Below are positions 1,550 through 17,654 of a stretch of 56,140 nt of DNA, piece by piece. A model generated the notes under the pieces. That model was not told the DNA's origin. It was given only the letters and a program-made list of their open reading frames with translations, and ran no database searches. Within the stretch, counting starts at the first letter, position 1; every line of letters begins with the position of its first letter. Made by a program: the position numbers and the translations under genes. This DNA comes from a virus (lineage: Duplodnaviria > Heunggongvirae > Uroviricota > Caudoviricetes). The stretch covers positions 1-56,140 of the IMG/VR virus record IMGVR_UViG_2563366805_000004; one strand, given 5' to 3'.

Positions 1550-2965
1550 TTATTCGGCGTCAGAATTGTTTTGGTGTTTGAGCTCGGCAAATTTGGCAGC
1601 CATCGTTGGGTTGCCGCGCGTGAGTCGCTTGACCGTCAGGTCTTCGGCTTTATCGTTGGCAAGCCGAAGATTGTTGGCGGACTTGTGCAGGGCTTCTTTG
1701 GTCTTTTCAAGGTCCTTGATGGCTTCGTCGATGCGCTTGACCGCTTCTTCAAACCCATCTGAAGCCAAACGCCAGTTGCGACCGAATGCGGTCTTGAAGT
1801 CATCGAGCTGGGTTTCAAATTGGGTGATGTCGATGTTCTGCGCCTTCACCAGCGCCAGCTCGGACTTGTATTGAAGTGACTTCATCGCTGCATTGCGTAG
1901 TAGCGTGATGATGGGGATGAAGAACTGAGGCCGAACGACATACATCTTCGGGTAGCGGTGAAACACATCAACGATCCCAGCGTTGTAAAGTTCACTGTCT
2001 GGCTCCAGCAGGGAAACCAGCACGGCGTATTCGCAACCTTTTTCGGTGCGGTCCTTGTCGAGCTCCTTGAAGAAGTCTTCGTTTTTCTTCTTGGTTGCTG
2101 TTTCGTCGCCTTCGTTCTTCATCTCGAACATGATCGAGACGATCTCGGTGCCTGCATCATCCATGTCCCGGAAGATGTAGTCGCCCTTGCTGCCGGTGCG
2201 AACGTCGTTGTCTTTTTCGAAGTAGGCCATTGGGAATGCGGTGGCTCGGAGACGGTTAAACTCAATCTCGCAATGCTGCTCCAGGGTTTCCCCAATCATC
2301 TTGGTCGACAGCCGTGCCTTCATGTCCCGCAGACGTACAATCTCACCATCGCGATCTTTAAGCTGTGTTTCGTATTTATCTTTGAGTGCAGTCTCGGCAA
2401 GTTGCTTTTCCAATGCTGCTCGCTCTAGTCCGTTCTTGAGTTCGTCACGCTCCTTCGTCACCACGCTGACCGCTTCGGTGAGCGCGAGCTTTTGTGTAAC
2501 TTCGCCCGCTGCAAGCTTGGCCTGCAGACGCTGAATCTCCGCATCCTTGGTGGCCTCGGCTTGCTGTAGCTCACTTAATCGCTTCGCCTCGGCCAGTTGA
2601 GCTTTAGTTTCAATCTCTTGCTTTGCTTTTTCCAGCGCGTTCCTCAGTGCATCGCGATCTTTTTCTACCGCGCTCAGCGCCTCACTGACAGCAAGCTTTT
2701 GCGCCACCTCTCCTGCATCCAGCCTAGCCTTTAATGCCTGGATTTCGGCATCTTTTTCAGAAGCAGCCTTCTGCAATTCGCTGGTAACCTTGGCTTGAGC
2801 CAGCTCGACCGCATTTTGCTTGTCCCTTTCGGCCAGCTCAAGGCGTTCATGTAACTGCTTCTCAAAGTCAGCATCGCGAACCTGTTTCAGAATGTCTGAG
2901 TAACCAGCTTCATCAATCTTGAAAGCCTTGCCGCAATGGGGGCAGATGATTTCATGCATAGTCAT
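1550..2965 (-). CDS. Zn-ribbon plus long coiled-coil protein, DUF2130-like
   Basis: 471-aa ORF with N-terminal CPHCGK zinc-ribbon motif, a long E/K/A/L-rich heptad region and a conserved C-terminal domain; start overlaps the upstream stop by 4 nt (ATGA); GAAGGA RBS. Confidence 0.6.
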
Positions 2966-4842
2966 TTTCCTTCTACCTTGGCCAAAATTTGCTGGAGCAT
3001 CTCTGGCACCGCCCCTGCGGATTTGAGTGTCGCCGTGCGGTATGCGAGTTGGTTCTTCGAGAGACTAATACCTGTGGCAATCTCGATTTCACTGCAAGCA
3101 GCTAGCCACTCAGGCCAGTTGGCTACGAGAAATGATTCCAGATGGTCTTCAAAAATGGCGACTGTGTCGCCTACGACAGCTTCCGGAAAATCTTCTTCAG
3201 CAATACCGAAGTATTTCAGAGCTGTCCGGTTTTCTCGGGCATTTTTTGCAAGTTCTTCATCGATCTTGTTTTGCTGTTTTCCTTTGGCTTTTGCTCGCGC
3301 CGCACATGCTCTGTCAGCATCGAAAAGCGCATAAACCGGGATACCGAGTGCGGACAGGATGGCATGGACAAGAGGAATCGACGTCTTGCCTCCGACTGGG
3401 ACAATGGAAATACCAGCGGCTTCAAGCGCACCATGAGATATTTTGTCGCCTATACCGTGGAACACCGATGACTCGGTGGTACCCTCCACAAGAAAAGCGC
3501 GATGGGCAAAGAGGGCTACAGCCAGTTGCTCTGAAACGATGCCATCTAACTGACGTTCGACAACATCACCATTTACTATCTGGTGCAGCCTGGTCTTCAC
3601 ATCATCAATGGAGGCAAAGTGGATAGTCACAGTCGGAGTCTCTCCAGATGATCGCGTCAATCTCCTGACATGATCAAAATGGCGGGCCTCAAGGAAATAA
3701 GGGCTGTGCGTTGCATAGGTTACTTGGATACACTTGTCGGGGTCTTCAACAAGTGAGCGGAGCACTTTTGCAAACGCCTGTGCCTGAATCGGGTGCTGAA
3801 AGAGCTCAGGTTCTTCAATTGCTAAACAGATGACTCCGTCGGCTGAAGCTGCTCCCGATTGTGCCAAGAGCTGGAGCGCCGAGATCAGAATAGTCCGCTG
3901 AAAACCATGCCCCTGTCGCTCTACCGCTGTTTCGGTTGTACCATCGAGCACGGATACTTCGAACGTGGTCTTGGGGGCTTTGAGCTCTACCTCTGCGGGA
4001 GAAACCGTGACCGCCCGACCGGGTGAGTATGAGCAAACAACCTCGTTAAGCTGCGTCGTCATCACCTTAAGCTGGGCTTGGAATTTCTCTTCGTAGACTT
4101 TCTGCTGCTTTGCTCTGGACTCCTCGACGATTGCCGCAATCTCCTGATCTGCCGCTGCACGATCAACGGAGCGTTCCAGGATGCGTCCGATGATGCTCGA
4201 TTTACCGTCAATGGACTCTTCGCTTGCACGAAGGTCTGCAGTCACCAGCACAAAATCGAAGAGGCCGCTCATCTTGCCGCCGCTGTTGAAACCAAAGAAG
4301 TTGGTTTGCAGCGATTCGGGGGCGTCTACGAGTAACTCTGTATGTGATGCCTCCCAGGTAGTCATTGCCTGGTCAATGGCTGTACCGGTAGTGGCTGTAG
4401 GAAGCTCCAGCTCTGGACGACTAGTTCTGAGATTTGTATAAAGCTCCCTCTTCGCCGCTACGCCATTTGCAGTTTTGATTACGTTGAACTCTGGGAATCC
4501 CTTTGCGTTTGCAGAGAGCACATCGGTGCCGTCAGCTGAACGGCGCTTCCACGCCGTGAATGTAGCTGCGCCCTCTGGAGTGTACTTACCAAGCGCCTCC
4601 CGATCCTTTTCGGTGAGATCTGCGAATGTGACTTGCACCTCGATGTCTTCGCTAGCTTCTCCAAAGGAGCAGTCTTTCTCTGTCAGCGAGCCGGGCTTGC
4701 CGTTGAAGAACCAATCGAGTGCATGTAGCACTGTCGACTTGCCAGCGCCGTTCGGCCCTATGAATGTCGTAACGGAGTCGAAGGGAATCGTGACGTCTTT
4801 GAGTGCCCGGAAGTTTTTGATGCGAACGGATTGAATCTTCAT
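2962..4842 (-). CDS. OLD-family ABC-ATPase / Toprim nuclease
   Basis: 626 aa; N-terminal [14 protein letters not shown]...[11 protein letters not shown] Walker A; C-terminal Toprim signatures FLVEGTTE and a DxD motif (ALFDAD). Confidence 0.8.
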
Positions 4843-4876
4843 TTCAGTTTTATTCCCTTATACCTGTTGTGATCTA

Positions 4877-5566
4877 TCAATGTTTGAGTTCTTCCAGTTC
4901 TATTTTCAACATTCGCAGTTTGGCGTTGATCTCTACCTTGCGGTTGAATTGTTTTTCTTTGGCAAGTCTGCTGGCTATTTTTTCAACCTCACGTTGCTTG
5001 GCTGCAACCAGTTCGACACGTGCGACCAAATCCGCGAGACTTTCTTGTAGGCGCGCGGGCGTGGAGATCAGGCTGTGAAGCAACTGCTCATACAAGCCGC
5101 CCAAGTCGAGTGCTAAGGGCATGGCGGCGCGCTCACAGTCACTCGGCAACCAGGCTGTTGCAAAGTAGTCACTCAAGACCCAACGGCTGGCGTCTGACTC
5201 ATTGGGGCGTTTGTACGCAGCGATCACCTTTGTTCGGCCATCAAAGCTCAGCTCGAAGATAATGGGAAACTGCACTGCGCCATCGATGCAACGCAAAACG
5301 TCCAGATTCAGCTCCGATGCCTTGAGCTGGATTGAGAAAATCTGAAGCTCTGGTACTCCCAGCCTGGCGGGCAGGTTGATCGTTTCCGGAGCCAACTTGT
5401 ATTGCCAGACGATCTGCTCCACCTGCTCGACGAACAAGTCCTTCAGCCTCGTATTGGCGCCGCTGTGTTCGTAGATCTTATTCTTTGGCAGGGTACGACC
5501 AAAGACAGCCTGCTTCGGATAGTTGATGAACGCGGTATTCGACTCAAATCGCGCAGACTGACTCAT
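4877..5566 (-). CDS. DUF4391-like protein
   Basis: 229-aa ORF, 4-nt overlap with helicase stop; family assignment is from recollection of this domain next to helicase/methyltransferase genes, not verified. Confidence 0.5.
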   Translation of the reverse strand: MSQSARFESNTAFINYPKQAVFGRTLPKNKIYEHSGANTRLKDLFVEQVEQIVWQYKLAPETINLPARLGVPELQIFSIQLKASELNLDVLRCIDGAVQFPIIFELSFDGRTKVIAAYKRPNESDASRWVLSDYFATAWLPSDCERAAMPLALDLGGLYEQLLHSLISTPARLQESLADLVARVELVAAKQREVEKIASRLAKEKQFNRKVEINAKLRMLKIELEELKH

Positions 5567-8500
5567 CCGGCCTCCTGAATCACGAGGAAGGTAATCAGTT
5601 CGAAGTCGTCCAGTCCGACGATAGTATTGACCAACGCGGTGGTCTTTCCGCTGCAGAAGAGGCTGTCCAGATCCTTATCTTCCTTCACCTCGATCATTGA
5701 GCGGATGGCCTTGCCAAGCAGGTCCGAATACATCTGCATCTTGCGGCCATCGGCCGTTTCCTTATTGAACAGGAGACAGGCATCTGTAATAGGCTGGGCT
5801 TGTCCCTTGCAGCAGGTGCGAACCAGATCCAGCAAACGTTTGACTTCGGTGTAATCGTGAATGACTTCCCCCTCGCGATTAATGTAGACGAGGTAATAAG
5901 GGTGCAGGCGGTTGTGCTGACTGACGTTGACGCTTGGATTCCGGTTGCGTAGCGTGAAGATTACACCCGGGCGTAGGCCCATCTCCGGCTTGGCAGGCAC
6001 TACGGCGTGCATCCCGCTTGGCACGTTGCTCATTTCGCCATTGGCCTTCACATAGTTGAGCAAGTCCATTCGGAAGTCATTGAGCCCGAGATCAGTAATC
6101 GACACTCCGGTTTTCAGGTCTTCCAGCTCAATCACTTCCTCTTGCAAACGTCGCAATTGCTCTTTGCGATAAGACACATCGTTGGCTTGGGCGCTCAGCA
6201 CATTGTCGTCACCGGTGGCAGTGACATCGGCAATCATCATTCGGCTTTCAACCCGTTCCTTCAGGTTGATGTATTCGTCGAGCGAGATGTCTGGCCAGTA
6301 GTTAACCAGTTGGATGCTGCTGTTGGGTGAGCCGATGCGATCCACACGGCCGAAGCGCTGGATGATGCGCACGGGATTCCAGTGGATGTCGTAGTTGATG
6401 AGGTAGTCGCAGTCCTGTAGGTTCTGGCCTTCAGAGATACAATCGGTGCCGATCAACACATCTATCTCTGCCTCCTCATTTGGCAGCACGATGGCTTTCT
6501 CCTTCGAGTGCGGCGAGAAGAGGGTGAGCAGTTCCTGGAAGTCATAGCTCTTCTTGAGCGTGCTCTTCGGTGCCCCTTTGCCGGTGACTTTTGCACTGTG
6601 CAAGGTCTGTGTAGCCAGCAATTCCGGAGCCAAATTGGCATACAGATAGTCAGCGGTGTCGGCGAAGGCGGTGAAGATCAGCACCTTCTTGTTGCCAGGA
6701 TTCAGCGGTGCTGCGATCTTTTCCAGAACCAGTGCTTTGAGATGCTGCAGTTTGGCATCATCGGCAGCCGTGATCTTGTTCATCGACGTCAGCAAAGCAT
6801 CAATGATTTCCAGATCGACCTTCAGCTCGTGCTCCCAGGAAGGCAAGTCCATATCGGCGAGGCTGATTTTGACCTTGCCACCGATCTCACTGTCGCCATT
6901 GCTTGGCAGGTCGTCGTCCGCGTCGAGGTTTTCTAACTGGTCGGTCAGGTCATTTATTCTGCTATCAATGCCACTGAGGCCGCCAGTCTCATTGAAAGTG
7001 CTGATCTTGGCCAGCGTATTAGTGTGGTTCGCGCGCAGGGACTTGAGCGTCAAGCGGAAAGACTCAATCGAGCTTTCCAGGCGCTTGAGCAGGTTGGTCG
7101 TCATCAATGCCTGCAAACTCTTTTCACGGTCGATTTGTTTAAGCTTGCCTTTCCCTGCAACCTGAGTGTCATACATCTCCTCGTACTTCTTGAGCCGACT
7201 GGGCAGAATGTAGCTGATCGGGGCATAAACGGCGAGCTTGAGCAAAGACAGCTGCTCGAAGATCTCGTTGAAGCTCATCACATCCGTTCGCTGCGTGAGC
7301 GGACAGTGGAACGACAAGGGTTTGCGGCGCTCGGGGAATTGGCCTATTTCCTTGGTGTCGTAGAAAGTCTGGATATGCTTGCGTGAGCGTGCGATGGTGA
7401 CGCTGTCGAGCAATTCGAAGAAGTCGAAGTCCAACGAGTCCAGGATGGCCCGCGCTGTGCGCTCTTCCGGTGGAAGCTTTGCCCATGCATTGAAGCTGGC
7501 CTGCGCACCACGGAAAATGTCCTCTACCGTCTTGCCGGTACGCAGCTTCTTGCTGAGGTTTTCGGAATCGCCTTCGTAGGCCAGTGCCAGTTGGTTGCGC
7601 AGGTCATTGAAGCGGTTGTTCACCGGGGTGGCCGAAAGCATCAGCACCTTGGTCTTCACGCCTTCCTTGATAACCTTGTTCATCAGCTTCTGGTAGCGGG
7701 TTTCCTTGTCCTTATAGGCGTCATTGTTGCGGAAGTTGTGTGACTCGTCGATGACGACGAGGTCGTAGTTGCCCCAGTTAATGCGATTCAGCGGTGTGCC
7801 AAATGACTCACCGCTCGTACGGCTGAGGTCGGTATGACAAAGTACGTCGTAGTTGAACCGGTCGCGAGCAAATATGTTGGTTTTGAGGTTACGGCTGTAG
7901 TTCAGCCAGTTGTCCGCCAGCTTCTTGGGGCATAACACCAGAACTGACTTGTTGCGCAGTTCGTAATACTTTATCACGGCCAGCGCGGTGAAAGTCTTGC
8001 CCAAGCCCACGCTGTCGGCCAAGATGCACCCGCTGTAGCTCTCAAGTTTGTTAATGATCCCGGTGGCAGCATCTTTCTGGTAATTGAAGAGTTTGTTCCA
8101 GATGAGCGTGTCTTGATAGCCTGTGCGGTCGTTCGGTAGGACATCCTCGTTGATGTCGTCCAGAAACTCATTGAAGATATTGTAGAGCATCAGGAAGTAG
8201 ATGCTCTCGGGCGAGTTTTCCTGGTAGACGGATGCAATGTGGTCGCAGATCTGCTCCGTTACATCCTCCAGCTTCTCAGGATCTTGCCAGATCTGGTTAA
8301 ACAGACTGAGGTAGGTCGCCGTAAACGTCGACTCGTCCATTTTGTTGACGAGGTTTGAGACAGCGTTGCCTTGCTGGTAGCCAAGATCGACGGCGGTAAA
8401 TCCGTGCAGTGGCATGTAGGCAGTCTCTGCGGCGGCGGCCTGAACACAAGCAAACTGCTGCATCGGAGCCTTGCTGCGATTGGACTTGAATGTTGCCTTG

Positions 8501-8844
8501 CGCCGCATCCAGTCCGCGCACTCTTTTGCAATTGCGCGCTGGGTCAGTTTGTTACGCAGCTGAATTTCGAACTCACTCCCGTACAAGCTCCGTTCGCGGT
8601 CAGCCTTCGGTATGTGAAATTCTCTGCGTTCCTTGCGAATCTTGTCGGTAACCTCGTTAGCGGTAAACGTCGGTGAGGTAAAGATGAATTGCAGCTCGTC
8701 GATTTTTTCCAGCTCTGCTTTGAGCGCTTCGAACGCGTACATCGAAAAGCAGGAGGCGGCGATCTTCAGGCGAGCACTAGGTTTGAGCGTCTGCTTTAGG
8801 TCGTCTCCGAGCAGGTGGTTGATATTGTCGATCAGTTCCATCAA
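5563..8844 (-). CDS. SNF2-family (SF2) helicase/translocase with ~250-aa N-terminal extension
   Basis: 1093 aa; motif I LADSVGLGKTFTA, motif II VVIDESHNFRN, motif III LMLSATPVNN, motif VI QRFGRVDRIGS; no recognisable nuclease motif seen by eye. Confidence 0.85.
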   Translation of the reverse strand: MMELIDNINHLLGDDLKQTLKPSARLKIAASCFSMYAFEALKAELEKIDELQFIFTSPTFTANEVTDKIRKERREFHIPKADRERSLYGSEFEIQLRNKLTQRAIAKECADWMRRKATFKSNRSKAPMQQFACVQAAAAETAYMPLHGFTAVDLGYQQGNAVSNLVNKMDESTFTATYLSLFNQIWQDPEKLEDVTEQICDHIASVYQENSPESIYFLMLYNIFNEFLDDINEDVLPNDRTGYQDTLIWNKLFNYQKDAATGIINKLESYSGCILADSVGLGKTFTALAVIKYYELRNKSVLVLCPKKLADNWLNYSRNLKTNIFARDRFNYDVLCHTDLSRTSGESFGTPLNRINWGNYDLVVIDESHNFRNNDAYKDKETRYQKLMNKVIKEGVKTKVLMLSATPVNNRFNDLRNQLALAYEGDSENLSKKLRTGKTVEDIFRGAQASFNAWAKLPPEERTARAILDSLDFDFFELLDSVTIARSRKHIQTFYDTKEIGQFPERRKPLSFHCPLTQRTDVMSFNEIFEQLSLLKLAVYAPISYILPSRLKKYEEMYDTQVAGKGKLKQIDREKSLQALMTTNLLKRLESSIESFRLTLKSLRANHTNTLAKISTFNETGGLSGIDSRINDLTDQLENLDADDDLPSNGDSEIGGKVKISLADMDLPSWEHELKVDLEIIDALLTSMNKITAADDAKLQHLKALVLEKIAAPLNPGNKKVLIFTAFADTADYLYANLAPELLATQTLHSAKVTGKGAPKSTLKKSYDFQELLTLFSPHSKEKAIVLPNEEAEIDVLIGTDCISEGQNLQDCDYLINYDIHWNPVRIIQRFGRVDRIGSPNSSIQLVNYWPDISLDEYINLKERVESRMMIADVTATGDDNVLSAQANDVSYRKEQLRRLQEEVIELEDLKTGVSITDLGLNDFRMDLLNYVKANGEMSNVPSGMHAVVPAKPEMGLRPGVIFTLRNRNPSVNVSQHNRLHPYYLVYINREGEVIHDYTEVKRLLDLVRTCCKGQAQPITDACLLFNKETADGRKMQMYSDLLGKAIRSMIEVKEDKDLDSLFCSGKTTALVNTIVGLDDFELITFLVIQEAG

Positions 8845-9746
8845 GAGTCAGCCTTTGTAGCGGCGCTATAGCCTGGTGCCAGTAAGGCGTTTTTCACGCC
8901 GTAAATCGCGAGATGATCTTTGAGCCATAAACGGTACTCCGGTCCATTTAGGCAATGATCGGGTGAGCAGTCAACCCGCCAGCGCTGCAACATATAGCCC
9001 ACTACAGCCGCGCGAACGCGCATCCTAATCGAGCCATCGGCCATCCCGTAGTCCATCTTGATGATCTCGGGGCGTTCAATGCGCGGGTGCGGCACGAAAT
9101 CCAACTCGACGATGCGCGTCCACTGGATATCATTATCCGGTCGTTCGTTGGCCTGTGGAACCTCTTCAAGCAATGTTGGCGCTTCGATGCGGGTGACGAC
9201 GAAATCCCGAAACTCTCCACTTTTGCGATCAAAGGCCCGGGCGTGCCAGCGCAGGCCGGTATCTACCAAAGCAAAGGGCACAATGACCCGTTCGGACTTG
9301 CCGCTGCTCATCGAGTGGTAGCGGATGGCGACGGGGCGCTTGGAGTGGATGGCTCGACAAATCACGGCCAACACATCCATCTTGGGTATGCTCAGGACTG
9401 TGGGGGATTCACAGGGTAGCAACGCCTGCATTGGGCCATTCACGCCATCGCCAAAGCCCAGAGCCAGCGCCGACAGAACACGCTGCGATGCGTGCTCGAA
9501 TAACGGAGAGAACGCCTGCCCGATACGATAGATCTTGTCGCTACCATCAAAGGTGATGTTATTCGGAGCGATTTCCCGGTACAAAGCCAAATCGCGAGTC
9601 GCTCCTGCTGGAGCAACGCCAAAGCGCTCAATCAAATCTGGGCGACCGATCTCACCGAAGAAGTAAAGCCGAAAATCGATGTAGGCCAGCCGTTCGCGCT
9701 GGACCTGGCTCAAGTCGTCAAGCCGCTTACAAGGGGGACTAGGCAT
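8841..9746 (-). CDS. WYL-domain transcriptional regulator, BrxR/CapW-like
   Basis: 301 aa; N-terminal wHTH signature ERLAYIDFRLYFFGEIGRPDLIERFGVAPAGATRDLALYREIAP; stop overlaps helicase start (ATGA); first gene of the co-directional operon. Confidence 0.8.
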   Translation of the reverse strand: MPSPPCKRLDDLSQVQRERLAYIDFRLYFFGEIGRPDLIERFGVAPAGATRDLALYREIAPNNITFDGSDKIYRIGQAFSPLFEHASQRVLSALALGFGDGVNGPMQALLPCESPTVLSIPKMDVLAVICRAIHSKRPVAIRYHSMSSGKSERVIVPFALVDTGLRWHARAFDRKSGEFRDFVVTRIEAPTLLEEVPQANERPDNDIQWTRIVELDFVPHPRIERPEIIKMDYGMADGSIRMRVRAAVVGYMLQRWRVDCSPDHCLNGPEYRLWLKDHLAIYGVKNALLAPGYSAATKADS

Positions 9747-10090: not shown

Positions 10091-10250
10091 TATATCATCC
10101 CTCTGAACATATCCGATTAACGGCGGAATCTCTCGATCCTGCCGTTTTTGTATTATTTTTCAGAGGAGTAGTAATGAACAATTCTGAAGGTTTGAAGCCA
10201 TTTCAGCAGTCGCTTGATGGTCTGCCACAATGGGTCTCAGAACGAGTCAT
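10091..10250 (+). repeat. Copy A of ~160-bp direct repeat (5' leader plus first codons of yfjP-type GTPase gene)
   Basis: About 80% identical by eye to 17285-17445; contains a hairpin followed by a T-run just upstream of a GAGGAG RBS. Confidence 0.6.
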
Positions 10251-11037
10251 GCAGCAAATTCGTCAACTGACAAACTACGAACCAGTGATCGGCATCATGG
10301 GTAAAACCGGTGTTGGGAAGAGCAGTCTGTGCAATGCCCTGTTTGCTGGAGAGGTATCGCCGGTCAGCGATGTGGCGGCCTGTACTCGTGAGCCACTGCG
10401 CTTTCGACTGCAAGTTGGCGACCGCCATATGACGCTGGTGGACCTGCCCGGCGTAGGCGAAAGTGGCGCTCGCGATATCGAGTATGCTGCGCTGTATCGC
10501 GAACAACTCCCCCGGCTCGACCTGGTGCTGTGGTTGATCAAGGCTGATGACCGGGCGCTGGCAGTAGATGAACACTTTTATCATCAGGTGATTGGGGAGG
10601 CATACCGGCATAAGGTGCTGTTTGTTATCAGCCAGTCGGATAAGGCCGAACCCACCAGCGGTGGGAGACCATTGTCCATCACGCAGAAGCAGAACATCAG
10701 CCGCAAAATCTGTCTGCTGCATGAGCTGTTCCAGCCCGTACATCCAGTATGTGCCGTGTCGGTCCGTCTTCAGTGGGGGCTGCGGGTGATGGCCGAGCGA
10801 ATGATTAAGTGTCTGCCACGTGAGGCCACCAGCCCGGTGGTGTCGCAACTCCAGCCTTCCTTTCGCACGACGTTAGTCCGGGAGCAGGCTCGTAGCGATT
10901 TTGGTGAAACCATCGGTGCTGTACTCGATAGCATCAGTGCCTTTCCCCTGATACCCGCCCCGGTGCGGGCCGTCATTCAGGCCGTGCGCACCACTGTGGT
11001 GTCAGTGGCCCGCGCCGTCTGGGATTTCTTCTTCTAA
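10174..11037 (+). CDS. yfjP: YfjP/YeeP/YkfA-family GTPase
   Basis: 287 aa; P-loop GIMGKTGVGKSSLCNAL and DLPG motif; length and order match the CP4-57 backbone. Confidence 0.85.
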   Translation: MNNSEGLKPFQQSLDGLPQWVSERVMQQIRQLTNYEPVIGIMGKTGVGKSSLCNALFAGEVSPVSDVAACTREPLRFRLQVGDRHMTLVDLPGVGESGARDIEYAALYREQLPRLDLVLWLIKADDRALAVDEHFYHQVIGEAYRHKVLFVISQSDKAEPTSGGRPLSITQKQNISRKICLLHELFQPVHPVCAVSVRLQWGLRVMAERMIKCLPREATSPVVSQLQPSFRTTLVREQARSDFGETIGAVLDSISAFPLIPAPVRAVIQAVRTTVVSVARAVWDFFF

Positions 11038-13154: not shown

Positions 13155-13587
13155 AACACTACCTCTGCTGGGGCTGGTTGCCGCCACTCTGTTTCTGAGC
13201 GCCTGCGATGACAGGAGTGATGACCTCAAAGCTATCAGTAAATTTAAGGACCTCACGCCTCCGCGCTTCAGCGATGTTGTCAGCCGTCAGGATGATGTCA
13301 GCGAAGAATGGTCCCAGGTTGGCTTCTCATCCGGTCTCACCCTGCAGGTCTTACGTACCCGCCAGTCGCCCGATGGCTGCGAGGGAGGCAGTTACTACTA
13401 TCTGGTGGATATGGAGGAAAAAACCGTCCAGCCGCTGATGAATGCGCTATGTATTGCCGACAACATCAGCCTGGAATACCACGAGAAAACTGACCCGCGC
13501 ACCCGGGAGCGTTTCCTTGAATATTCCCATGACGGCAAACTGATGGGACGGCTGCTGATACCCTCAAATCCTGATAACCGGGAATAA
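13144..13587 (+). CDS. yfjS: YfjS-like lipoprotein
   Basis: 147 aa; signal peptide with lipobox LFLSAC. Confidence 0.65.
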   Translation: MKRKTLPLLGLVAATLFLSACDDRSDDLKAISKFKDLTPPRFSDVVSRQDDVSEEWSQVGFSSGLTLQVLRTRQSPDGCEGGSYYYLVDMEEKTVQPLMNALCIADNISLEYHEKTDPRTRERFLEYSHDGKLMGRLLIPSNPDNRE

Positions 13588-13610
13588 ATACAAAGACAAA
13601 GGAGACAGAA

Positions 13611-14078
13611 ATGAAAGTACGTTCACTAAGCCGGTATGTGCTCTCAGGCGTGCTGCTTACCAGCTTTAATGCCTCAGCGGTTCCCGGACTATGGCAGCAG
13701 GGTTATGGCCAGGGCAATGCGGAATACAGCGTGACGGATGGCAGCGGAAAGATATTTACCATCAACTGCACGGAAAATCCGGACCAGAACGGTATTTACC
13801 AGCACTCGGTTTTTCTGACCCTCGCAGGGGATAAAACGATCAGCTCGCATGATGACAGTACCGACATCACAGTGGTGATGGACCATAAGCAATATGCCAT
13901 TCCCTCAACCCTTGGCTGGCGTAACGGGGATAATGCCTGGTTTAGTTTCATCATGGATATCCGTAAGGCCAGTCAGTTCGACGTCTACGTTAATGACCGC
14001 AAAGCGGGGACCTTCAGCGTTGACCTGACGAACGCTACGAAAGCACTGCCAACATTAGCAGACTGCACTAACGAGTGA
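13611..14078 (+). CDS. yfjT: YfjT-like secreted protein
   Basis: 155 aa; N-terminal signal peptide (LLTSFNASA); position after yfjS. Confidence 0.6.
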   Translation: MKVRSLSRYVLSGVLLTSFNASAVPGLWQQGYGQGNAEYSVTDGSGKIFTINCTENPDQNGIYQHSVFLTLAGDKTISSHDDSTDITVVMDHKQYAIPSTLGWRNGDNAWFSFIMDIRKASQFDVYVNDRKAGTFSVDLTNATKALPTLADCTNE

Positions 14079-14107
14079 CAGTTGTGCTTTCCATCCATAA
14101 CAACATA

Positions 14108-14141
14108 CCTGACTGCCAGGAGCAGTCAGGGTTTATTTTTT
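14108..14141 (+). terminator. Rho-independent terminator downstream of yfjT-like gene
   Basis: cctgactg / cagtcagg 8-bp stem followed by gtttatttttt. Confidence 0.6.
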
Positions 14142-14275
14142 CCTTTTTATTTCCACCGATTAGTCCAGGCACTTCCGAATGACGATCACAGTGGCCAGTT
14201 TTAGTTGACTATATAGCAATGATAAAATAATCACGTGTTATGTTGAGATTGTTTATTTAGCGGTTGAGAGAAACT

Positions 14276-14464
14276 ATGGATAAAATTTGTGATAAGTGTG
14301 CACACATGATGAGTGCATGCACCTGTGGAACTTGTGAGAACTGTGACGAGAAAGAGTCGGACTGCACCTGCAAAAAATGTAGCCAGTGCAATAAACTTGA
14401 GGACTTCTGCTCTTGCAGAGTTTGTGAAGAATGTAGTGAAAAAGAAGCAGAGTGCTGCTGTTAA
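14276..14464 (+). CDS. Cysteine-rich small protein (62 aa) with three ~15-aa CxCxxCxxC repeats
   Basis: MDKICDKCAHMMSACTCGTCENCDEKESDCTCKKCSQCNKLEDFCSCRVCEECSEKEAECCC; strongly periodic Cys spacing with TGT/TGC codons; GAGAGA RBS-like sequence upstream. Confidence 0.45.
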   Translation: MDKICDKCAHMMSACTCGTCENCDEKESDCTCKKCSQCNKLEDFCSCRVCEECSEKEAECCC

Positions 14465-14699
14465 AATGTTAACAATACAGGCTGCAGGAGCTGCCTGCCT
14501 GCAGCTTCGATTGCCGACGTCAACCGCTCCCAGTTGGTTAGGGTACTTCGATTCTTGCAACAATCGCTGGACTCACAGCACAAAGCGGACAAACTTTCTA
14601 AACCAAAGGTCCGCTGAGAGCGAGAATCAGACGTTACTAAGACATTACGTACACCACGGCGCCTTAGTCGACTGGAAATAGGTATTCCTACCATAAGGT

Positions 14700-16322
14700 T
14701 CATTCTTCCTCATGATAATCGCTCTTGCTCCATAATGGCTTGATAGCGTGATAGGCGCCACTGAATGGACATTTAGAATTTTTGTTCCGCTGGATTCGGA
14801 GCAAATCATCAATATCCTTTTCGATGATTTTTTTTACCTGTGAATGGTATCGCTGAAGTGAGACATCACTAATGGACTTTTCAAAGCGGAGGCTGGTGTC
14901 TTGATTCACAAGATCGTAAACACCGTCTTTTATTTTCATTCTGTTGCCTTCAGGGATGCCCATTTTCAGGTCATAGCATTTCAACCCGGCCAGACGGACT
15001 TCGACACCGACGCGCTCAGTACGTGTTTTCTTGTGGCTAATCAGAAGCACTTTATTGTTTTCGTACCATTTTTCAAAGGATTGCACTATATCTCTGTTCT
15101 TTTGTTGGTTGCCTTGAGAAGCGCTGTAAAAATGATAACTGTTCGAACTATAGACGTGACGTTCCCGGTCGGAGATTTGCGGAATGGTACCTTTCTGCCT
15201 GCGCATCTGGTCGGCAGGCTGCTCATAAATACGTAGTAAGCAGTCTGCGAGAGAGTCTGAAGCATCATGCAACGTATTGGTCTGGATGAGTTTCAGGAGG
15301 GTATCTCGCTTGATTGAAATCTGGCAATAATCGCTCTCCCAAGCCACTGTCGGTTGCTGCTCTTCCCCTTCTGAAGAGGTGGTGATATCAGGCGTAACAG
15401 TGGTGAATTTCCAGACAAATGGTGTTGATTGCGAATATTTGAAATACATCTGAAGCTCAGCCAGCCACTGTATGATCTCCGAAGCATAAATGCCCACATA
15501 CTGGTCGAACAGATATTCGGCGTACTGAGGTGCGCACTGTTCAACAATCCTTTCAATGAACTCAACACGCCCTTCATCGTTAATTAACTTTATTATTTTA
15601 TGGAATACGCCGTTCTTCCGCCTTTCTCCTATCAGAAAATTTGTGTGAACTTTTTCAAATTCGGACAGCCAGTCGGGAGTAACAATGCCGGCATCATGCA
15701 AAGCGGTAATTAAGTTGTAAATTGCATCAGCAAGTATCGGAAGTGAATCTATTTTGTGGAAATCGTTCAATCGGGAAAGTAGCTCCTGGCTGCATGAGTG
15801 CGCAATGGAAAGGTCCTGATGGCAGTAGCCTTTTCGTGCCTGAGGCGGGATTGGCGAACAATGTGTCGGGCCCTCGGCCAAGATGGCAAACATATCATCG
15901 TGAATAAACTGCTCCAGAAGTTTGCTTTGTTCCGTAAAGCGGAACCCCTGCTCTGTTGGCTGCCGGTTCATCTCTCTCCAGGTCTTCAGACTGACCTTGC
16001 CATCATCAAAACCGGCATAGAGTTGATGCATGAAAATGAGTGCATCCATGAGGCTGTCCTGCTTTTGTTCCTTAAAATGAAACTCATATGTGTTCTGAGA
16101 GTAGATTTTGTTGATTTTATTGCTCTGGGCTCGCAGCTTTGTCAGTACCTTGTGCTGCTCATCAAACCACTTGCTGAATTCAGTATCTTCATTCAGTTGC
16201 CGGGCCTTAAGGATGAGGAGAAGTATCTGTTCGCTGATTGCATCATAAATGTTCGGGAAAGGGTTGGCGGCACCAGAAAGAAACGTGCAGAACAGAGACT
16301 TGTTATGTTCAGAATGGTGCAT
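14700..16322 (-). CDS. Hypothetical 540-aa protein, AT-rich (positional equivalent of CP4-57 yfjW)
   Basis: Long uninterrupted ORF in a visibly AT-rich segment with AT-rich promoter-like region upstream (16323-16660); no motif recognised by eye. Confidence 0.6.
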   Translation of the reverse strand: MHHSEHNKSLFCTFLSGAANPFPNIYDAISEQILLLILKARQLNEDTEFSKWFDEQHKVLTKLRAQSNKINKIYSQNTYEFHFKEQKQDSLMDALIFMHQLYAGFDDGKVSLKTWREMNRQPTEQGFRFTEQSKLLEQFIHDDMFAILAEGPTHCSPIPPQARKGYCHQDLSIAHSCSQELLSRLNDFHKIDSLPILADAIYNLITALHDAGIVTPDWLSEFEKVHTNFLIGERRKNGVFHKIIKLINDEGRVEFIERIVEQCAPQYAEYLFDQYVGIYASEIIQWLAELQMYFKYSQSTPFVWKFTTVTPDITTSSEGEEQQPTVAWESDYCQISIKRDTLLKLIQTNTLHDASDSLADCLLRIYEQPADQMRRQKGTIPQISDRERHVYSSNSYHFYSASQGNQQKNRDIVQSFEKWYENNKVLLISHKKTRTERVGVEVRLAGLKCYDLKMGIPEGNRMKIKDGVYDLVNQDTSLRFEKSISDVSLQRYHSQVKKIIEKDIDDLLRIQRNKNSKCPFSGAYHAIKPLWSKSDYHEEE

Positions 16323-16667
16323 TCGGACCTCTTTTTTGTGATATTTATCACAATTTATGATTATGTTTATGCCGTTCAGCTGAAGAGAAAATTGATAAAG
16401 CTGGCCATTTCAACACCGCCGCCTGTGTTTTCATCTAAAAATCATAGCAGAATGATTATAAAAATCACGAAAATTATCTATTTGATTTTAAATTGTGACT
16501 TTTCTTTACCAAAAAACGAAAAATAAAAAAAATTGATAAATTAACAACGTGGAATTTTAAAATTAATCAATTTAATAAAATAATTAACTAACTTGATTTT
16601 TTTATCGCCATATACCATTGTGTCTTCAGCGGGGTGTGTTGCCTCGCATTTCATGAGGGTGATAGAC

Positions 16668-17108
16668 ATGAGTGAAGTAACGACGCAGGATATTGATGAT
16701 GCATTGGAGCGAGCCCAGACGTTGAAAGATATAGCTGAGGAGTTCGTCGATATCGCTGATGGCATCAATAATGCTGAGCGTATCAGATTGGAGGAAGAGC
16801 GTGATATCGACATTGATAGCTCACGCTGGGTTCCTCTGGATGACATCCCACTGGGTGAAGAAGTGCTTCGAGTGAAAGATGATACGCCTAGCCTAGAAAG
16901 CGCAATCCAGACGCTGGAAAACCTGGCTGAAGGTAAAATTCCTGCTGCTGATATCATCGAAAAATTCCAAGAGGCGATGGAAGACCTGGAAACTGTCGAA
17001 GGTACGCTTCAAGATGTAGGCGCAGAAGAAGTCATCAAAGCCTCTCAAGCACCTTACGAAAATGACTTCGACGATGAGCAGGATGACGGGGAATACAGTG
17101 AAGAGTAG
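16668..17108 (+). CDS. Highly acidic small protein (~146 aa)
   Basis: Start at MSEVTTQDIDD; extremely D/E-rich throughout (…ENDFDDEQDDGEYSEE at C-terminus). Confidence 0.6.
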   Translation: MSEVTTQDIDDALERAQTLKDIAEEFVDIADGINNAERIRLEEERDIDIDSSRWVPLDDIPLGEEVLRVKDDTPSLESAIQTLENLAEGKIPAADIIEKFQEAMEDLETVEGTLQDVGAEEVIKASQAPYENDFDDEQDDGEYSEE

Positions 17109-17284
17109 GACAATTAACGGGTATGGCTACCCGTTCAACTTGAACCGCTCCATGTAGTTTGAATTCACGGGCCTGCTATTAAAGTCAGGCCCTGAATTTT
17201 TAAACAACACATGATAATCCTGCGTATTAAGGAACGTCCGCCAATGGCACAGAATGGTCTATCAGCATTATAAAAGTATTCAGA

Positions 17285-17445
17285 TATATATCATTCCTCT
17301 GAACATACCCGATTAGCGGCAGAAACTCACGATTCTGCCGCTTTTTTATTATTTTTCTGAGGAGTAATAATGAACAGTTCTGAAGATTTAAACTCGTTTC
17401 ACCAATCGTTTTATGACCTACCTCAGTGGGTATCGGCTGATTGCG
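17285..17445 (+). repeat. Copy B of ~160-bp direct repeat (see 10091-10250)
   Basis: Near-identical leader, RBS and first ~25 codons of the yfjP-type gene; homology ends inside the ORF. Confidence 0.6.
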
Positions 17446-17654
17446 CAGCAGGGCTACTGGTACCTGTCGGTATCACCGGCATTAACATTGAAGACGACCA
17501 GGGCAGTCACGTCCGCATGATAGTTTGCGATGCCGAAGGTCGGATGGCTGGCAGGCATGGAACTTTTAACCGGAAGCCGGTGAAGGTCTTAACCGCTATA
17601 TCTCCAAGCCAGATATCTTTACGGACTTATTCACCCATTACCAGCAACATTTAA
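17370..17654 (+). pseudogene. Truncated yfjP/yeeP-type GTPase remnant
   Basis: N-terminus MNSSEDLNSFHQSFYDLPQWVS parallels MNNSEGLKPFQQSLDGLPQWVS of the intact gene, but no P-loop follows and the ORF is only 94 aa. Confidence 0.55.

What the first reader, a model, noticed from the sequence alone, without database searches (positions are those of the whole stretch)
14276..14464. Cysteine-rich 62-aa ORF with three regular CxCxxCxxC repeats
Roughly a third of residues are Cys, arranged in three ~15-aa repeats (CTCGTCENCDEKESD / CTCKKCSQCNKLEDF / CSCRVCEECSEKEAE) ending in CCC. That periodicity is unlikely by chance and resembles a metallothionein-like metal-binding peptide or a Cys-rich RiPP-like precursor, neither of which I expect in this island backbone. 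It is convergent with the 540-aa orphan gene.
Basis: seen in the sequence. Interest (0 to 1): 0.5.

Follow-up and report, generated by a model that had tools for sequence, protein, structure and literature searches.

The report
Unannotated four-module cysteine mini-protein gene
The 62-codon cysteine-rich reading frame is a real, conserved but never-annotated gene for a tiny acidic protein built from four tandem four-cysteine (probably zinc-binding) modules, part of a family carried on plasmids and genomic islands of Gammaproteobacteria; its cellular role is unknown.

Summary
Window 14276-14464(+) encodes a 62-aa peptide with 17 Cys (27%) at a strict 15-residue period; 0 of 200,000 shuffles reach that periodicity.

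It is a real gene.
- pN/pS is 0.17 in its frame, against 1.6 for the 110-aa antisense ORF.
- In eight distant homologues, synonymous sites are near saturation, yet all 20 framework Cys are invariant.
- Each homologue has its own ribosome-binding site and terminator.

The natural unit is C-x2-C-x6-C-x-C plus a 2-residue linker. The window has 4 units; relatives have 2, 4 or 5.

The family occurs on:
- yfjP-yfjT type islands in at least nine enterobacterial genera;
- small ColE1-like plasmids;
- larger plasmids of Vibrio, Aeromonas and Pseudomonas.

It has no conserved neighbour. The 540-aa orphan next to it is unrelated cargo.

No library matches it (Pfam, NCBIfam, PHROGs, PADLOC). RefSeq annotates it in none of 14 E. 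coli genomes. Five full-length members are absent from a 15-billion-protein collection.

- RiPP precursor: not supported, because no maturase is present, even on a 3.7-kb plasmid.
- Membership of a known metallothionein family: not met.
- Metal binding, one ion per module, is likely but untested.
- The biological role is open: a zinc-structured binding effector or a metallothionein-like sink.

The parts
14108..14130 (+). Intrinsic terminator of the upstream gene yfjT (stem-loop followed by GTTTATTTTT). It separates the Cys gene transcriptionally from yfjT.
   Evidence: terminator scan; yfjT named in RefSeq annotation
14220..14228 (+). Extended -10 promoter-like element TGATAAAAT (TG-n-TAAAAT). 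The start of transcription is inferred to lie a few bases downstream (about 14235).
   Evidence: Read from the sequence. Conserved in all yfjT-linked loci including Serratia. Not reported by the two-hexamer scan, so this is an inference only.
14266..14270 (+). Shine-Dalgarno-like GAGAG, 5 nt before the ATG.
   Evidence: Distant homologues have stronger sites (GGAGG, GAAGGAG, AAGGA) at the same distance.
14276..14464 (+). CDS of the 62-aa Cys4-repeat mini-protein, stop codon included. An in-frame TTG at 14264 is an alternative start.
   Evidence: pN/pS 0.17; homologues
14288..14326 (+). Module 1: C5-x2-C8-x6-C15-x-C17, preceded by the family-wide DKI motif.
14333..14371 (+). Module 2: C20-x2-C23-x6-C30-x-C32, containing the invariant K26.
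14378..14416 (+). Module 3: C35-x2-C38-x6-C45-x-C47.
14423..14461 (+). Module 4: C50-x2-C53-x6-C60-x-C62. The 'x' is the non-conserved C61.
14466..14520 (+). Stable 3' stem-loop (core 14479-14507; -23.3 kcal/mol, z = -3.05) without a U-tract. Probably the transcript end or a stabiliser. It marks the end of the cassette shared with Serratia and Moellerella.
14521..14640 (.). Conserved non-coding tail of the island backbone. Homology to other islands stops at 14591-14640, where variable cargo begins.
14231..14563 (-). 110-aa antisense ORF. It is not a gene but a by-product of the Cys/Glu/Lys codon composition.
   Evidence: pN/pS 1.6 in its frame; the corresponding frames in distant homologues give 1.4-1.7

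Best explanation
Shown:
- Window 14276-14464(+) is a genuine protein-coding gene. Its own start and end signals are inferred.
- Its 62-aa product has no signal peptide or hydrophobic segment.
- It is acidic (pI 4.6).
- It consists of a short DKI lead-in and four tandem 13-residue modules, C-x2-C-x6-C-x-C, joined by 2-residue linkers.
- It belongs to an unannotated family with 2, 4 or 5 such modules. The family travels as a self-contained cassette of about 300 bp on genomic islands and plasmids of Gammaproteobacteria.

Inferred:
- In the reducing cytoplasm, each module wraps one divalent metal ion with four thiolates. Zn2+ is the most likely ion.
- Each module would then be a CxxC 'knuckle' plus a CxC half-site, comparable in size to a retroviral zinc knuckle.
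- The four modules would form a beads-on-a-string, strongly anionic rod.
- By my arithmetic, Zn(Cys)4 centres would add about 8 negative charges to the 6 of the side chains.

Most likely role (weakest step):
- The metals are structural.
- The folded rod acts by binding one-to-one to a macromolecular partner, for the benefit of the mobile element. One possibility is a decoy or inhibitor of a DNA-binding host or defence protein.
- It would not act as an enzyme or as a peptide that needs modification.

My estimates:
- real expressed gene: about 0.95
- metal-binding Cys4 modules: about 0.75
- binding-effector role: about 0.4
For: Coding:
- Variable columns at codon positions 1/2/3 number 6/10/23, and pN/pS is 0.17 in the close set.
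- In eight 5-module homologues pS is 0.88 and pN is 0.25. All 20 framework Cys are invariant, and TGT and TGC are mixed at every position.

Stand-alone unit:
- The yfjT terminator lies upstream.
- A conserved extended -10 element is present.
- Distant homologues have their own SD sequences, and most shown have GC-rich stem-loops followed by T-runs after the stop, read by eye.
- Only 14215-14520 is shared with Serratia and Moellerella.

Module register:
- Every family member starts with CxxC and ends with CxC.
- All 64 modules have exactly x6.
- Linkers are 2 residues in 48 of 49 cases and 0 in one, and 3 in some large proteins.
- Residues after the second Cys are small or turn-forming (A/D/G/S/N). 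D/E precedes the third Cys. Both are as in knuckle-type sites.

Structural rather than amorphous:
- I4, K3, K26 and S13 are conserved from Vibrio to Pseudomonas.
- The same 13+2 module forms arrays of 6-11 in large proteins. These include a BspA-LRR surface protein and an Rmf/CrpP-like fusion.
- AF2 places isolated beta-bridges around each CxxC (low confidence).

Mobile-element conflict setting:
- The gene lies in a backbone with antirestriction, RadC and CbtA/YeeU genes.
- Elsewhere its neighbours include Mrr, SIR2+HerA, a KAP NTPase, an HD protein, integrases, and a T5orf172 gene with a DNA methylase a few kb away.
- It is present on 3.7-5.4-kb plasmids that otherwise carry only toxin-antitoxin and mobilisation genes.
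- No metal-resistance gene or metal-sensing regulator lies next to it in any context.
Against: - No metal content, expression or phenotype data exist.
- The AF2 model is poor (pLDDT 60), and Foldseek finds nothing.
- Predicted Cys4 micro-proteins do not always bind zinc: 5 of 14 purified Haloferax C(P)XCG proteins were zinc-free (PMC11241148).
- No partner is identified.
- No neighbour is conserved, so the 'conflict' setting may only reflect where accessory genes accumulate.
- On the ColE1-like plasmid the gene lies next to the 3' end of the mob operon, which does not obviously look like a leading region (my reading).
- Variable module number and decayed copies fit a dosage-type 'sponge' function at least as well.
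- The alternative register, contiguous CxCxxCxxC sites with the two termini forming a further site, is not excluded. The weak resemblance to CXXC fingers points that way.
Confidence: 0.4

Rival explanations
1. Modular metallothionein-like sink. The same protein exists mainly to sequester thiophilic metals (Zn, Cd, Cu(I)) or to scavenge oxidants. Its capacity would scale with the number of modules, giving the host of the plasmid or island a tolerance advantage.
For: - 27% Cys in CxC and CxxC motifs, one Phe and one His only, and small size.
- 4n invariant Cys, with loop residues varying more than the framework Cys.
- Module number varies between 2, 4 and 5. Modular eukaryotic metallothioneins do the same (my own knowledge).
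- High-copy small plasmids carry it.
Against: - No hit to any metallothionein model.
- No adjacent metal sensor or regulator, and no efflux or resistance genes, in more than 10 contexts.
- A strict 15-residue architecture, with conserved non-Cys residues and a conserved N-terminal DKI motif.
- The module also serves as a stalk-like array in large surface proteins.
- The composition is acidic rather than Lys-rich.
Confidence: 0.3
2. Precursor of a ribosomally made, post-translationally modified peptide whose cysteines are cross-linked by a maturase (ranthipeptide, sactipeptide or lanthipeptide-like).
For: A Cys-rich short ORF with a conserved N-terminal motif.
Against: - No radical-SAM, LanM, YcaO or other maturase gene, and no exporter gene, is nearby in any context. 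One context is a 3.7-kb plasmid with no CDS over 420 nt.
- The conserved 'leader' is only about 4-7 residues long.
- No NCBIfam precursor model hits.
- Hosts range from Vibrio to Pseudomonas, so a shared chromosomal maturase is unlikely.
Confidence: 0.04
3. Not a functional protein: a chance ORF, a Cys-sensing leader peptide, or a case in which the real gene is the antisense 110-aa ORF.
For: - Never annotated by PGAP in 14 E. coli genomes.
- RefSeq annotates an antisense ORF on one Cronobacter plasmid.
- A hairpin follows the stop codon.
Against: - Purifying selection acts only in the Cys frame, while the antisense frames give pN/pS above 1.
- The frame, the length in whole modules and all framework Cys are kept at 55-60% amino-acid identity across four orders.
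- No downstream gene is conserved, which a leader peptide would need.
Confidence: 0.03

Closest known systems
Metallothioneins (bacterial SmtA/BmtA, MymT; modular eukaryotic metallothioneins)
   Same: Small size, about 27% Cys in CxC and CxxC motifs, few aromatic residues or His, and probably several metal ions per chain. Module number varies between homologues.
   Different: There is no sequence homology and no Pfam or NCBIfam hit. The protein has a strict 13+2 period with exactly 4 Cys per unit, suggesting separate tetrahedral sites rather than shared thiolate clusters. It has conserved non-Cys residues, is acidic, has no linked metal-sensing regulator, and is carried on mobile elements.
Tandem CCHC zinc knuckles (retroviral nucleocapsid, CNBP; C-x2-C-x4-H-x4-C, 14 residues)
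   Same: Minimal metal modules of 13-14 residues that begin with a CxxC knuckle and are strung in tandem with very short linkers.
   Different: The ligand set is Cys4 with a terminal CxC. The protein is acidic rather than basic, so nucleic-acid binding is unlikely. No zf-CCHC profile hit was found.
Archaeal C(P)XCG zinc-finger micro-proteins (e.g. Haloferax HVO_2753, PDB 6YDH)
   Same: Stand-alone proteins of under 70 aa made almost entirely of Cys4 motifs and often missed by annotation. HVO_2753 was the only Foldseek hit, and it was non-significant (E = 5).
   Different: Those have two knuckle pairs with long spacers and no 15-residue periodicity. There is no homology. Zinc occupancy there is variable (PMC11241148).
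Eukaryotic CXXC-type zinc finger (TET1, CXXC4, MLL)
   Same: It contains CGxCxxC strings, and 8 Cys bind 2 Zn. It gave the best, though non-significant, PDB profile match (E = 0.054).
   Different: CXXC domains are basic CpG-DNA binders with a KFGG-type loop and a non-repeating topology. The similarity here is essentially Cys spacing only.
DnaJ cysteine-rich domain (4 x CxxCxGxG)
   Same: Four tandem Cys motifs in a cytoplasmic bacterial protein that bind Zn through Cys4 sites.
   Different: The DnaJ motifs pair non-locally (1+4 and 2+3) to give 2 Zn. The spacing and Gly signature differ, and no profile hit was found.
SCIFF and other Cys-rich RiPP precursors
   Same: Short ORFs with many Cys.
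   Different: Those are always next to a radical-SAM maturase. Here there is none, and no NCBIfam hit.

Membership tests
Bacterial metallothionein (SmtA/BmtA, Pfam Metallothio_Pro) and other metallothionein families | Sequence match to a family profile | tested here: not met
   No Pfam hit up to the E-value limits used (1 for the window peptide; 10 for two plasmid homologues). No NCBIfam hit.
Metallothionein (operational definition) | Low molecular weight, high Cys content, CxC/CxxC motifs, few aromatic residues or His | tested here: met
   62 aa, 17 Cys (27%), 1 Phe, 1 His
Metallothionein (operational definition) | High metal content in metal-thiolate clusters | not testable with these tools
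   Needs ICP-MS or native MS of purified protein. The strict 4-Cys modules suggest isolated sites rather than clusters.
Metallothionein (typical bacterial genetic setting) | Adjacent metal-responsive regulator or metal-resistance genes | tested here: not met
   None in more than 10 contexts
RiPP precursor (SCIFF/ranthipeptide, sactipeptide, lanthipeptide) | Co-located maturase (radical SAM, LanB/C/M, YcaO), usually with an exporter | tested here: not met
   Absent in all contexts, including a 3,760-bp plasmid
RiPP precursor | Match to a curated precursor family model | tested here: not met
   NCBIfam: 0 families for three members
CXXC-type zinc finger (zf-CXXC) | Significant profile or structure match, and a basic DNA-binding surface | tested here: not met
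   PDB profile E = 0.054 only; no Pfam hit; pI 4.0-4.8
Zinc knuckle or zinc ribbon (generic Cys4 structural site) | Four invariant ligands with CxxC knuckle spacing, conserved across homologues | tested here: met
   16/16 (window) and 20/20 (5-module set) framework Cys invariant; x2, x6 and x1 spacing in 64/64 modules
Zinc knuckle or zinc ribbon (generic Cys4 structural site) | Tetrahedral metal coordination in the folded protein | tested here: inconclusive
   AF2 pLDDT 60, with beta-bridges around each CxxC only. The literature warns that AF2 cannot decide this (PMC11241148).
Known anti-phage defence or anti-defence proteins | Match to PADLOC or PHROG models | tested here: not met
   0 families. 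Anti-defence libraries as such were not available.

The most novel reading that the evidence does not exclude
This would be the founding member of an unrecognised family that gene callers do not see. Its members are modular poly-zinc mini-proteins, (C-x2-C-x6-C-x-C)n with n = 2-5. Plasmids and genomic islands of Gammaproteobacteria would use them as a highly anionic, rod-like decoy (nucleic-acid mimic) against host or defence DNA-binding proteins. That would be a new structural class of anti-defence or establishment factor. The 13+2-residue unit would also be a new minimal metal-binding repeat, used as well in large surface proteins.
Probability: 0.2. Interest if true: 0.8.

Novelty: new variant of a known kind. 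Interest (0 to 1): 0.6.

Why it matters
Three points make it worth attention.

1. It is a clear example of a conserved small gene that standard pipelines miss.
   - It is absent from RefSeq annotation of all 14 E. coli carriers.
   - It is annotated on none of the 41 carrier plasmids. The only feature under a match lies on the opposite strand.
   - Full-length members are absent from a collection of 15 billion proteins.
2. Its architecture is unusually clean. It consists of whole numbers of a 13-residue Cys4 module with 2-residue linkers. That makes it an attractive minimal system for metal-site design and folding studies, and defines a repeat not covered by Pfam.
3. It spreads on small mobilisable plasmids of clinical Enterobacteriaceae and on islands that carry defence and antirestriction genes. 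Either function would therefore bear on how mobile elements establish and persist:
   - a metal or oxidant sink (zinc, copper or cadmium tolerance);
   - a zinc-structured inhibitor (anti-defence).

Tried and rejected
**Family libraries.** Pfam, NCBIfam, PHROGs and PADLOC scans of the peptide and two longer homologues gave no hits.

**RNA.** An Rfam scan of 13500-17500 found nothing.

**Protein databases.**
- Single-sequence and profile searches of 5.8 billion proteins found only 12 called relatives. Most are 2-module, frameshifted or truncated forms, and all are 'hypothetical'.
- An exact look-up of five full-length members found none in the collection.

**Structure.**
- AF2 with a 6-sequence alignment gave pLDDT 60.
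- Foldseek against the PDB found nothing significant.
- A PDB sequence profile gave only non-significant CXXC-finger and complement C7 matches.

**Repeats.** TRF finds no 45-nt DNA repeat.

**Literature.** Searches for the motif in several notations, for peptide strings and for plasmid small Cys-rich proteins found nothing relevant.

**Viral contigs.** Only two hits, both the island form, so the family is not typically phage-borne.

**Ideas considered and dropped.**
- *Link to the 540-aa orphan:* it is absent elsewhere.
- *Antisense ORF as the real gene:* pN/pS is above 1.
- *Cys-sensing leader peptide:* no conserved downstream gene exists.
- *Functional link to Mrr endonucleases:* the gene is adjacent to one in L021/L022 and L055. 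However, the L055 copy is a pseudogene, the two Mrr proteins are only 27% identical over 119 aligned residues, and most members have no Mrr neighbour.
- *Fur, Zur or MerR-type operators at the promoter:* nothing convincing by eye, and not tool-tested.
- *14 weak Bacillus plasmid hits:* they disappeared at E <= 1e-3 with a second query and were not pursued.

Full report
**1. The observation**

Window 14276-14464(+) translates to MDKICDKCAHMMSACTCGTCENCDEKESDCTCKKCSQCNKLEDFCSCRVCEECSEKEAECCC. It has 17 Cys in 62 residues (27%), at positions 5, 8, 15, 17, 20, 23, 30, 32, 35, 38, 45, 47, 50, 53, 60, 61 and 62.

- There are 12 Cys-Cys coincidences at lag 15. None of 200,000 residue shuffles reached that at any lag from 5 to 25.
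- It is by far the most Cys-rich of the 483 open segments of at least 50 aa in the window.
- The repeat is old at the DNA level. The units are 41-64% identical, and TRF finds no 45-nt period.

**2. Is it a gene?**

In complete E. coli genomes the locus is rare: 14 of 5,426. PGAP never annotates it.

Translated searches nevertheless find the same frame in many places:
- Siccibacter, Kluyvera (two species), Mangrovibacter, Buttiauxella, Leclercia, Atlantibacter, Moellerella and Serratia, at 85-100% identity;
- 41 plasmids;
- 30 metagenome contigs.

Selection acts on the Cys frame:
- In the close set, variable columns fall 6/10/23 on codon positions 1/2/3.
- pN/pS is 0.17 in the Cys frame. It is 1.6 in the frame of the 110-aa antisense ORF.
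- Among eight 5-module homologues, synonymous sites are near saturation (pS 0.88) while pN is 0.25.
- In that set all 20 framework Cys are invariant, with TGT and TGC mixed at every one.

This is selection on the amino acid, not on the RNA or DNA.

**3. Expression unit**

- yfjT ends with its own intrinsic terminator at 14108-14130.
- A conserved extended -10 element (TGATAAAAT, 14220-14228) and a GAGAG ribosome-binding site precede the ATG. The promoter is an inference, because the two-hexamer scan did not report it.
- A stable stem-loop follows the stop at 14466-14520 (-23.3 kcal/mol, z = -3.05).
- In Serratia and Moellerella only window 14215-14520 is shared, which is exactly the promoter, ORF and hairpin.
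- Distant homologues have unrelated flanks. Each has a good SD sequence, and most shown have a terminator-like stem-loop, as read by eye.

The gene therefore behaves as a self-contained cassette of about 300 bp.

**4. The family and its architecture**

Unique members recovered:

| Modules | Length | Where found |
|---|---|---|
| 2 | 37-39 aa | Vibrio plasmids of 230-300 kb; marine metagenomes |
| 4 | 62-67 aa | the window and all yfjT islands; 6-kb contigs with Rop, a pesticin-like gene and a ProQ-domain gene, apparently small plasmids |
| 5 | 81-85 aa | 3.7-5.4-kb ColE1-like HigBA/Mbe plasmids of Klebsiella, Enterobacter, Citrobacter, Salmonella and Cronobacter; larger Aeromonas plasmids; a 54-kb P. 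aeruginosa plasmid; metagenomes |

- All members begin with ...DKIC-x2-C and end with C-x-C.
- All 64 modules have the spacing C-x2-C-x6-C-x-C.
- Linkers are 2 residues in 48 of 49 cases and 0 in one.
- The module consensus is C-[DE]-x-C-[ADGS]-E-K-E-[SD]-[ED]-C-[TS]-C.

The complete units at both termini, the invariant x6 and the variable linker favour the register 4 x (CxxC-x6-CxC).

All members are acidic (pI 4.0-4.8). None shows a signal peptide or hydrophobic segment on reading the sequences.

Decayed copies also exist:
- Cys-to-Arg and Cys-to-Tyr changes on Klebsiella 3.6-kb plasmids;
- an in-frame stop in L055;
- a frameshift in L003/P0001.

**5. Context**

In the window the gene is the last backbone gene of a CP4-57-like island:
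- The order is yfjP GTPase, yfjQ DUF932, yfjR WYL, ypjK, yfjS, yfjT, then the Cys gene.
- Backbone homology stops at 14591-14640, mostly 14623-14640, in more than 25 loci. Different cargo follows.
- The 540-aa ORF and the acidic 171-aa ORF are such cargo. They are found only in the identical E. coli genomes and one metagenome contig.

Elsewhere the neighbours are unrelated to one another:
- HigBA and Mbe genes;
- Rop, a pesticin-like gene, LprI and ProQ;
- T5orf172, with a DNA methylase a few kb away;
- Mrr;
- SIR2 with HerA;
- a KAP NTPase;
- an HD protein;
- P4-type integrases.

No maturase, exporter, metal-sensing regulator or metal-resistance gene accompanies the gene in any context.

**6. 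Comparison with known families**

- Pfam, NCBIfam, PHROGs and PADLOC gave no hits. Rfam also found nothing.
- A PDB profile search gave only non-significant matches to eukaryotic CXXC fingers (E = 0.054).
- AF2 gave a low-confidence model (pLDDT 60) with beta-bridges flanking each CxxC.
- Foldseek returned only the archaeal zinc-finger micro-protein HVO_2753, at E = 5.
- A full HMMER scan of 1.8 billion representatives found the same 13+2 module in arrays of 6-11 in unrelated large proteins. These include:
  - a 1,614-aa BspA-LRR surface protein, with the array just before its membrane anchor;
  - signal-peptide proteins;
  - an Rmf/CrpP-like fusion with an acidic tail;
  - an F-box protein that looks viral or eukaryotic.
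- Pfam models matched only other parts of these proteins, never the Cys-module arrays. This points to an undescribed structural repeat. Convergence driven by Cys spacing cannot be fully excluded.
- Literature searches for the motif, peptide strings or plasmid small Cys proteins found nothing.
- The closest conceptual precedent is the C(P)XCG micro-proteins of Haloferax. That work also warns that predicted Cys4 sites are not always zinc-loaded and that AF2 cannot tell (PMC11241148).

**7. Mechanism**

Shown:
- a conserved, selected, stand-alone gene;
- a product made of whole numbers of Cys4 modules;
- a mobile-element lifestyle;
- no partner gene.

Inferred:
- In the reducing cytoplasm, 4n invariant Cys with knuckle-type spacing most plausibly bind one divalent metal per module, with Zn2+ the default.
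- This would give an elongated, very anionic chain.

For the biological role I weigh two readings.

(a) A zinc-structured binding effector that helps the element, acting as a decoy or inhibitor. I put this at about 0.4. It is favoured by:
- the conserved non-Cys positions (DKI, K26, [DE] before the third Cys);
- the use of the module as a structural stalk elsewhere;
- the acidic character;
- the antirestriction and defence-rich neighbourhoods;
- the absence of any metal-related neighbour.

(b) A modular metallothionein-like sink. I put this at about 0.3. It is favoured by:
- the composition;
- the variable module number;
- carriage on high-copy plasmids.

A RiPP precursor (about 0.04) and a non-gene (about 0.03) are essentially excluded by context and by the selection pattern.

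**8. Verdict**

- 'metal-binding-like' is plausible;
- 'RiPP' is not supported;
- 'foreign to the backbone' and 'linked to the orphan' are wrong.

The feature is a previously unannotated small-protein family with a new, very regular Cys4 repeat. The family is missed by gene callers: five full-length members are absent from 15 billion catalogued proteins. Its function needs experiments.

I rate it as a new variant of a known kind (small Cys-rich metal-binding proteins), interest 0.6.

Noticed in passing
window 1550-9746 (- strand): The island carries defence-type cargo. A 626-aa OLD/GajA/AriA-like ATPase lies at 2962-4842, next to a 471-aa ORF (1550-2965) with no PADLOC hit. A 1,093-aa HKD+Snf2 helicase lies at 5563-8844 (PADLOC PDLC01075, E = 4e-128). 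It is flanked by a DUF4391 gene (4877-5566) and an HTH regulator (8841-9746).
   Followed up: partly
window 14700-16322 (-) and 16593-17108 (+): The 540-aa ORF and a very acidic 171-aa ORF have no significant hit in Pfam, NCBIfam, PHROGs or PADLOC. They occur only in the eight E. coli genomes with an identical locus and in one metagenome contig. They sit in a lower-GC stretch (0.39-0.47, against 0.54-0.59 for the backbone). They are orphan cargo, unrelated to the Cys gene.
   Followed up: partly
window 14521-14640: About 120 nt of conserved non-coding sequence follows the 3' hairpin. Homology between islands ends at 14591-14640 in more than 25 loci, mostly within 14623-14640. This marks a recurrent cargo-insertion junction. 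No Rfam match was found.
   Followed up: partly
L013 (Cronobacter plasmid pCS-WR4) 2185-2412 (-): RefSeq annotates a 75-aa hypothetical protein (WP_104669273.1) on the strand opposite the 82-aa Cys-repeat gene (2272-2520 +). Two of the three antisense frames give pN/pS above 1 and the third 0.46, against 0.29 for the Cys frame. I did not determine which frame this ORF uses. The annotation is probably on the wrong strand.
   Followed up: partly
L024 2125-2286; L055 4001-4180; L003 141-470: Decayed family copies. Klebsiella 3.6-kb plasmids have Cys-to-Arg and Cys-to-Tyr changes and a shortened array. One metagenome copy has an in-frame stop. One assembly has a frameshift in the AAAAAA run, giving the 109-aa artefact P0001; this was the only hit in the first protein search.
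   Followed up: yes
proteins P0007-P0013: The same C-x2-C-x6-C-x-C module with a 2-3-residue linker forms arrays of 6-11 units in large proteins: a BspA-LRR surface protein, signal-peptide proteins, an Rmf/CrpP-like fusion and an F-box protein. Pfam models matched only other parts of these proteins, so this is probably an undescribed structural repeat.
   Followed up: partly
window 17370-17654 (+): A 94-aa ORF whose first ~22 residues (MNSSEDLNSFHQSFYDLPQWVS...) resemble the N-terminus of the YfjP-like GTPase at 10174-11037. It looks like a truncated duplicate at the far side of the cargo. This was seen by eye only.
   Followed up: no
L021/L022 6357-7274 and L055 4357-5358: Mrr-type restriction endonuclease genes lie immediately downstream of the Cys gene, in the same orientation, in two otherwise unrelated contexts. 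The two Mrr proteins are only 27% identical over 119 aligned residues, and the L055 Cys copy is a pseudogene. This is probably coincidence, but it might be a lead.
   Followed up: partly
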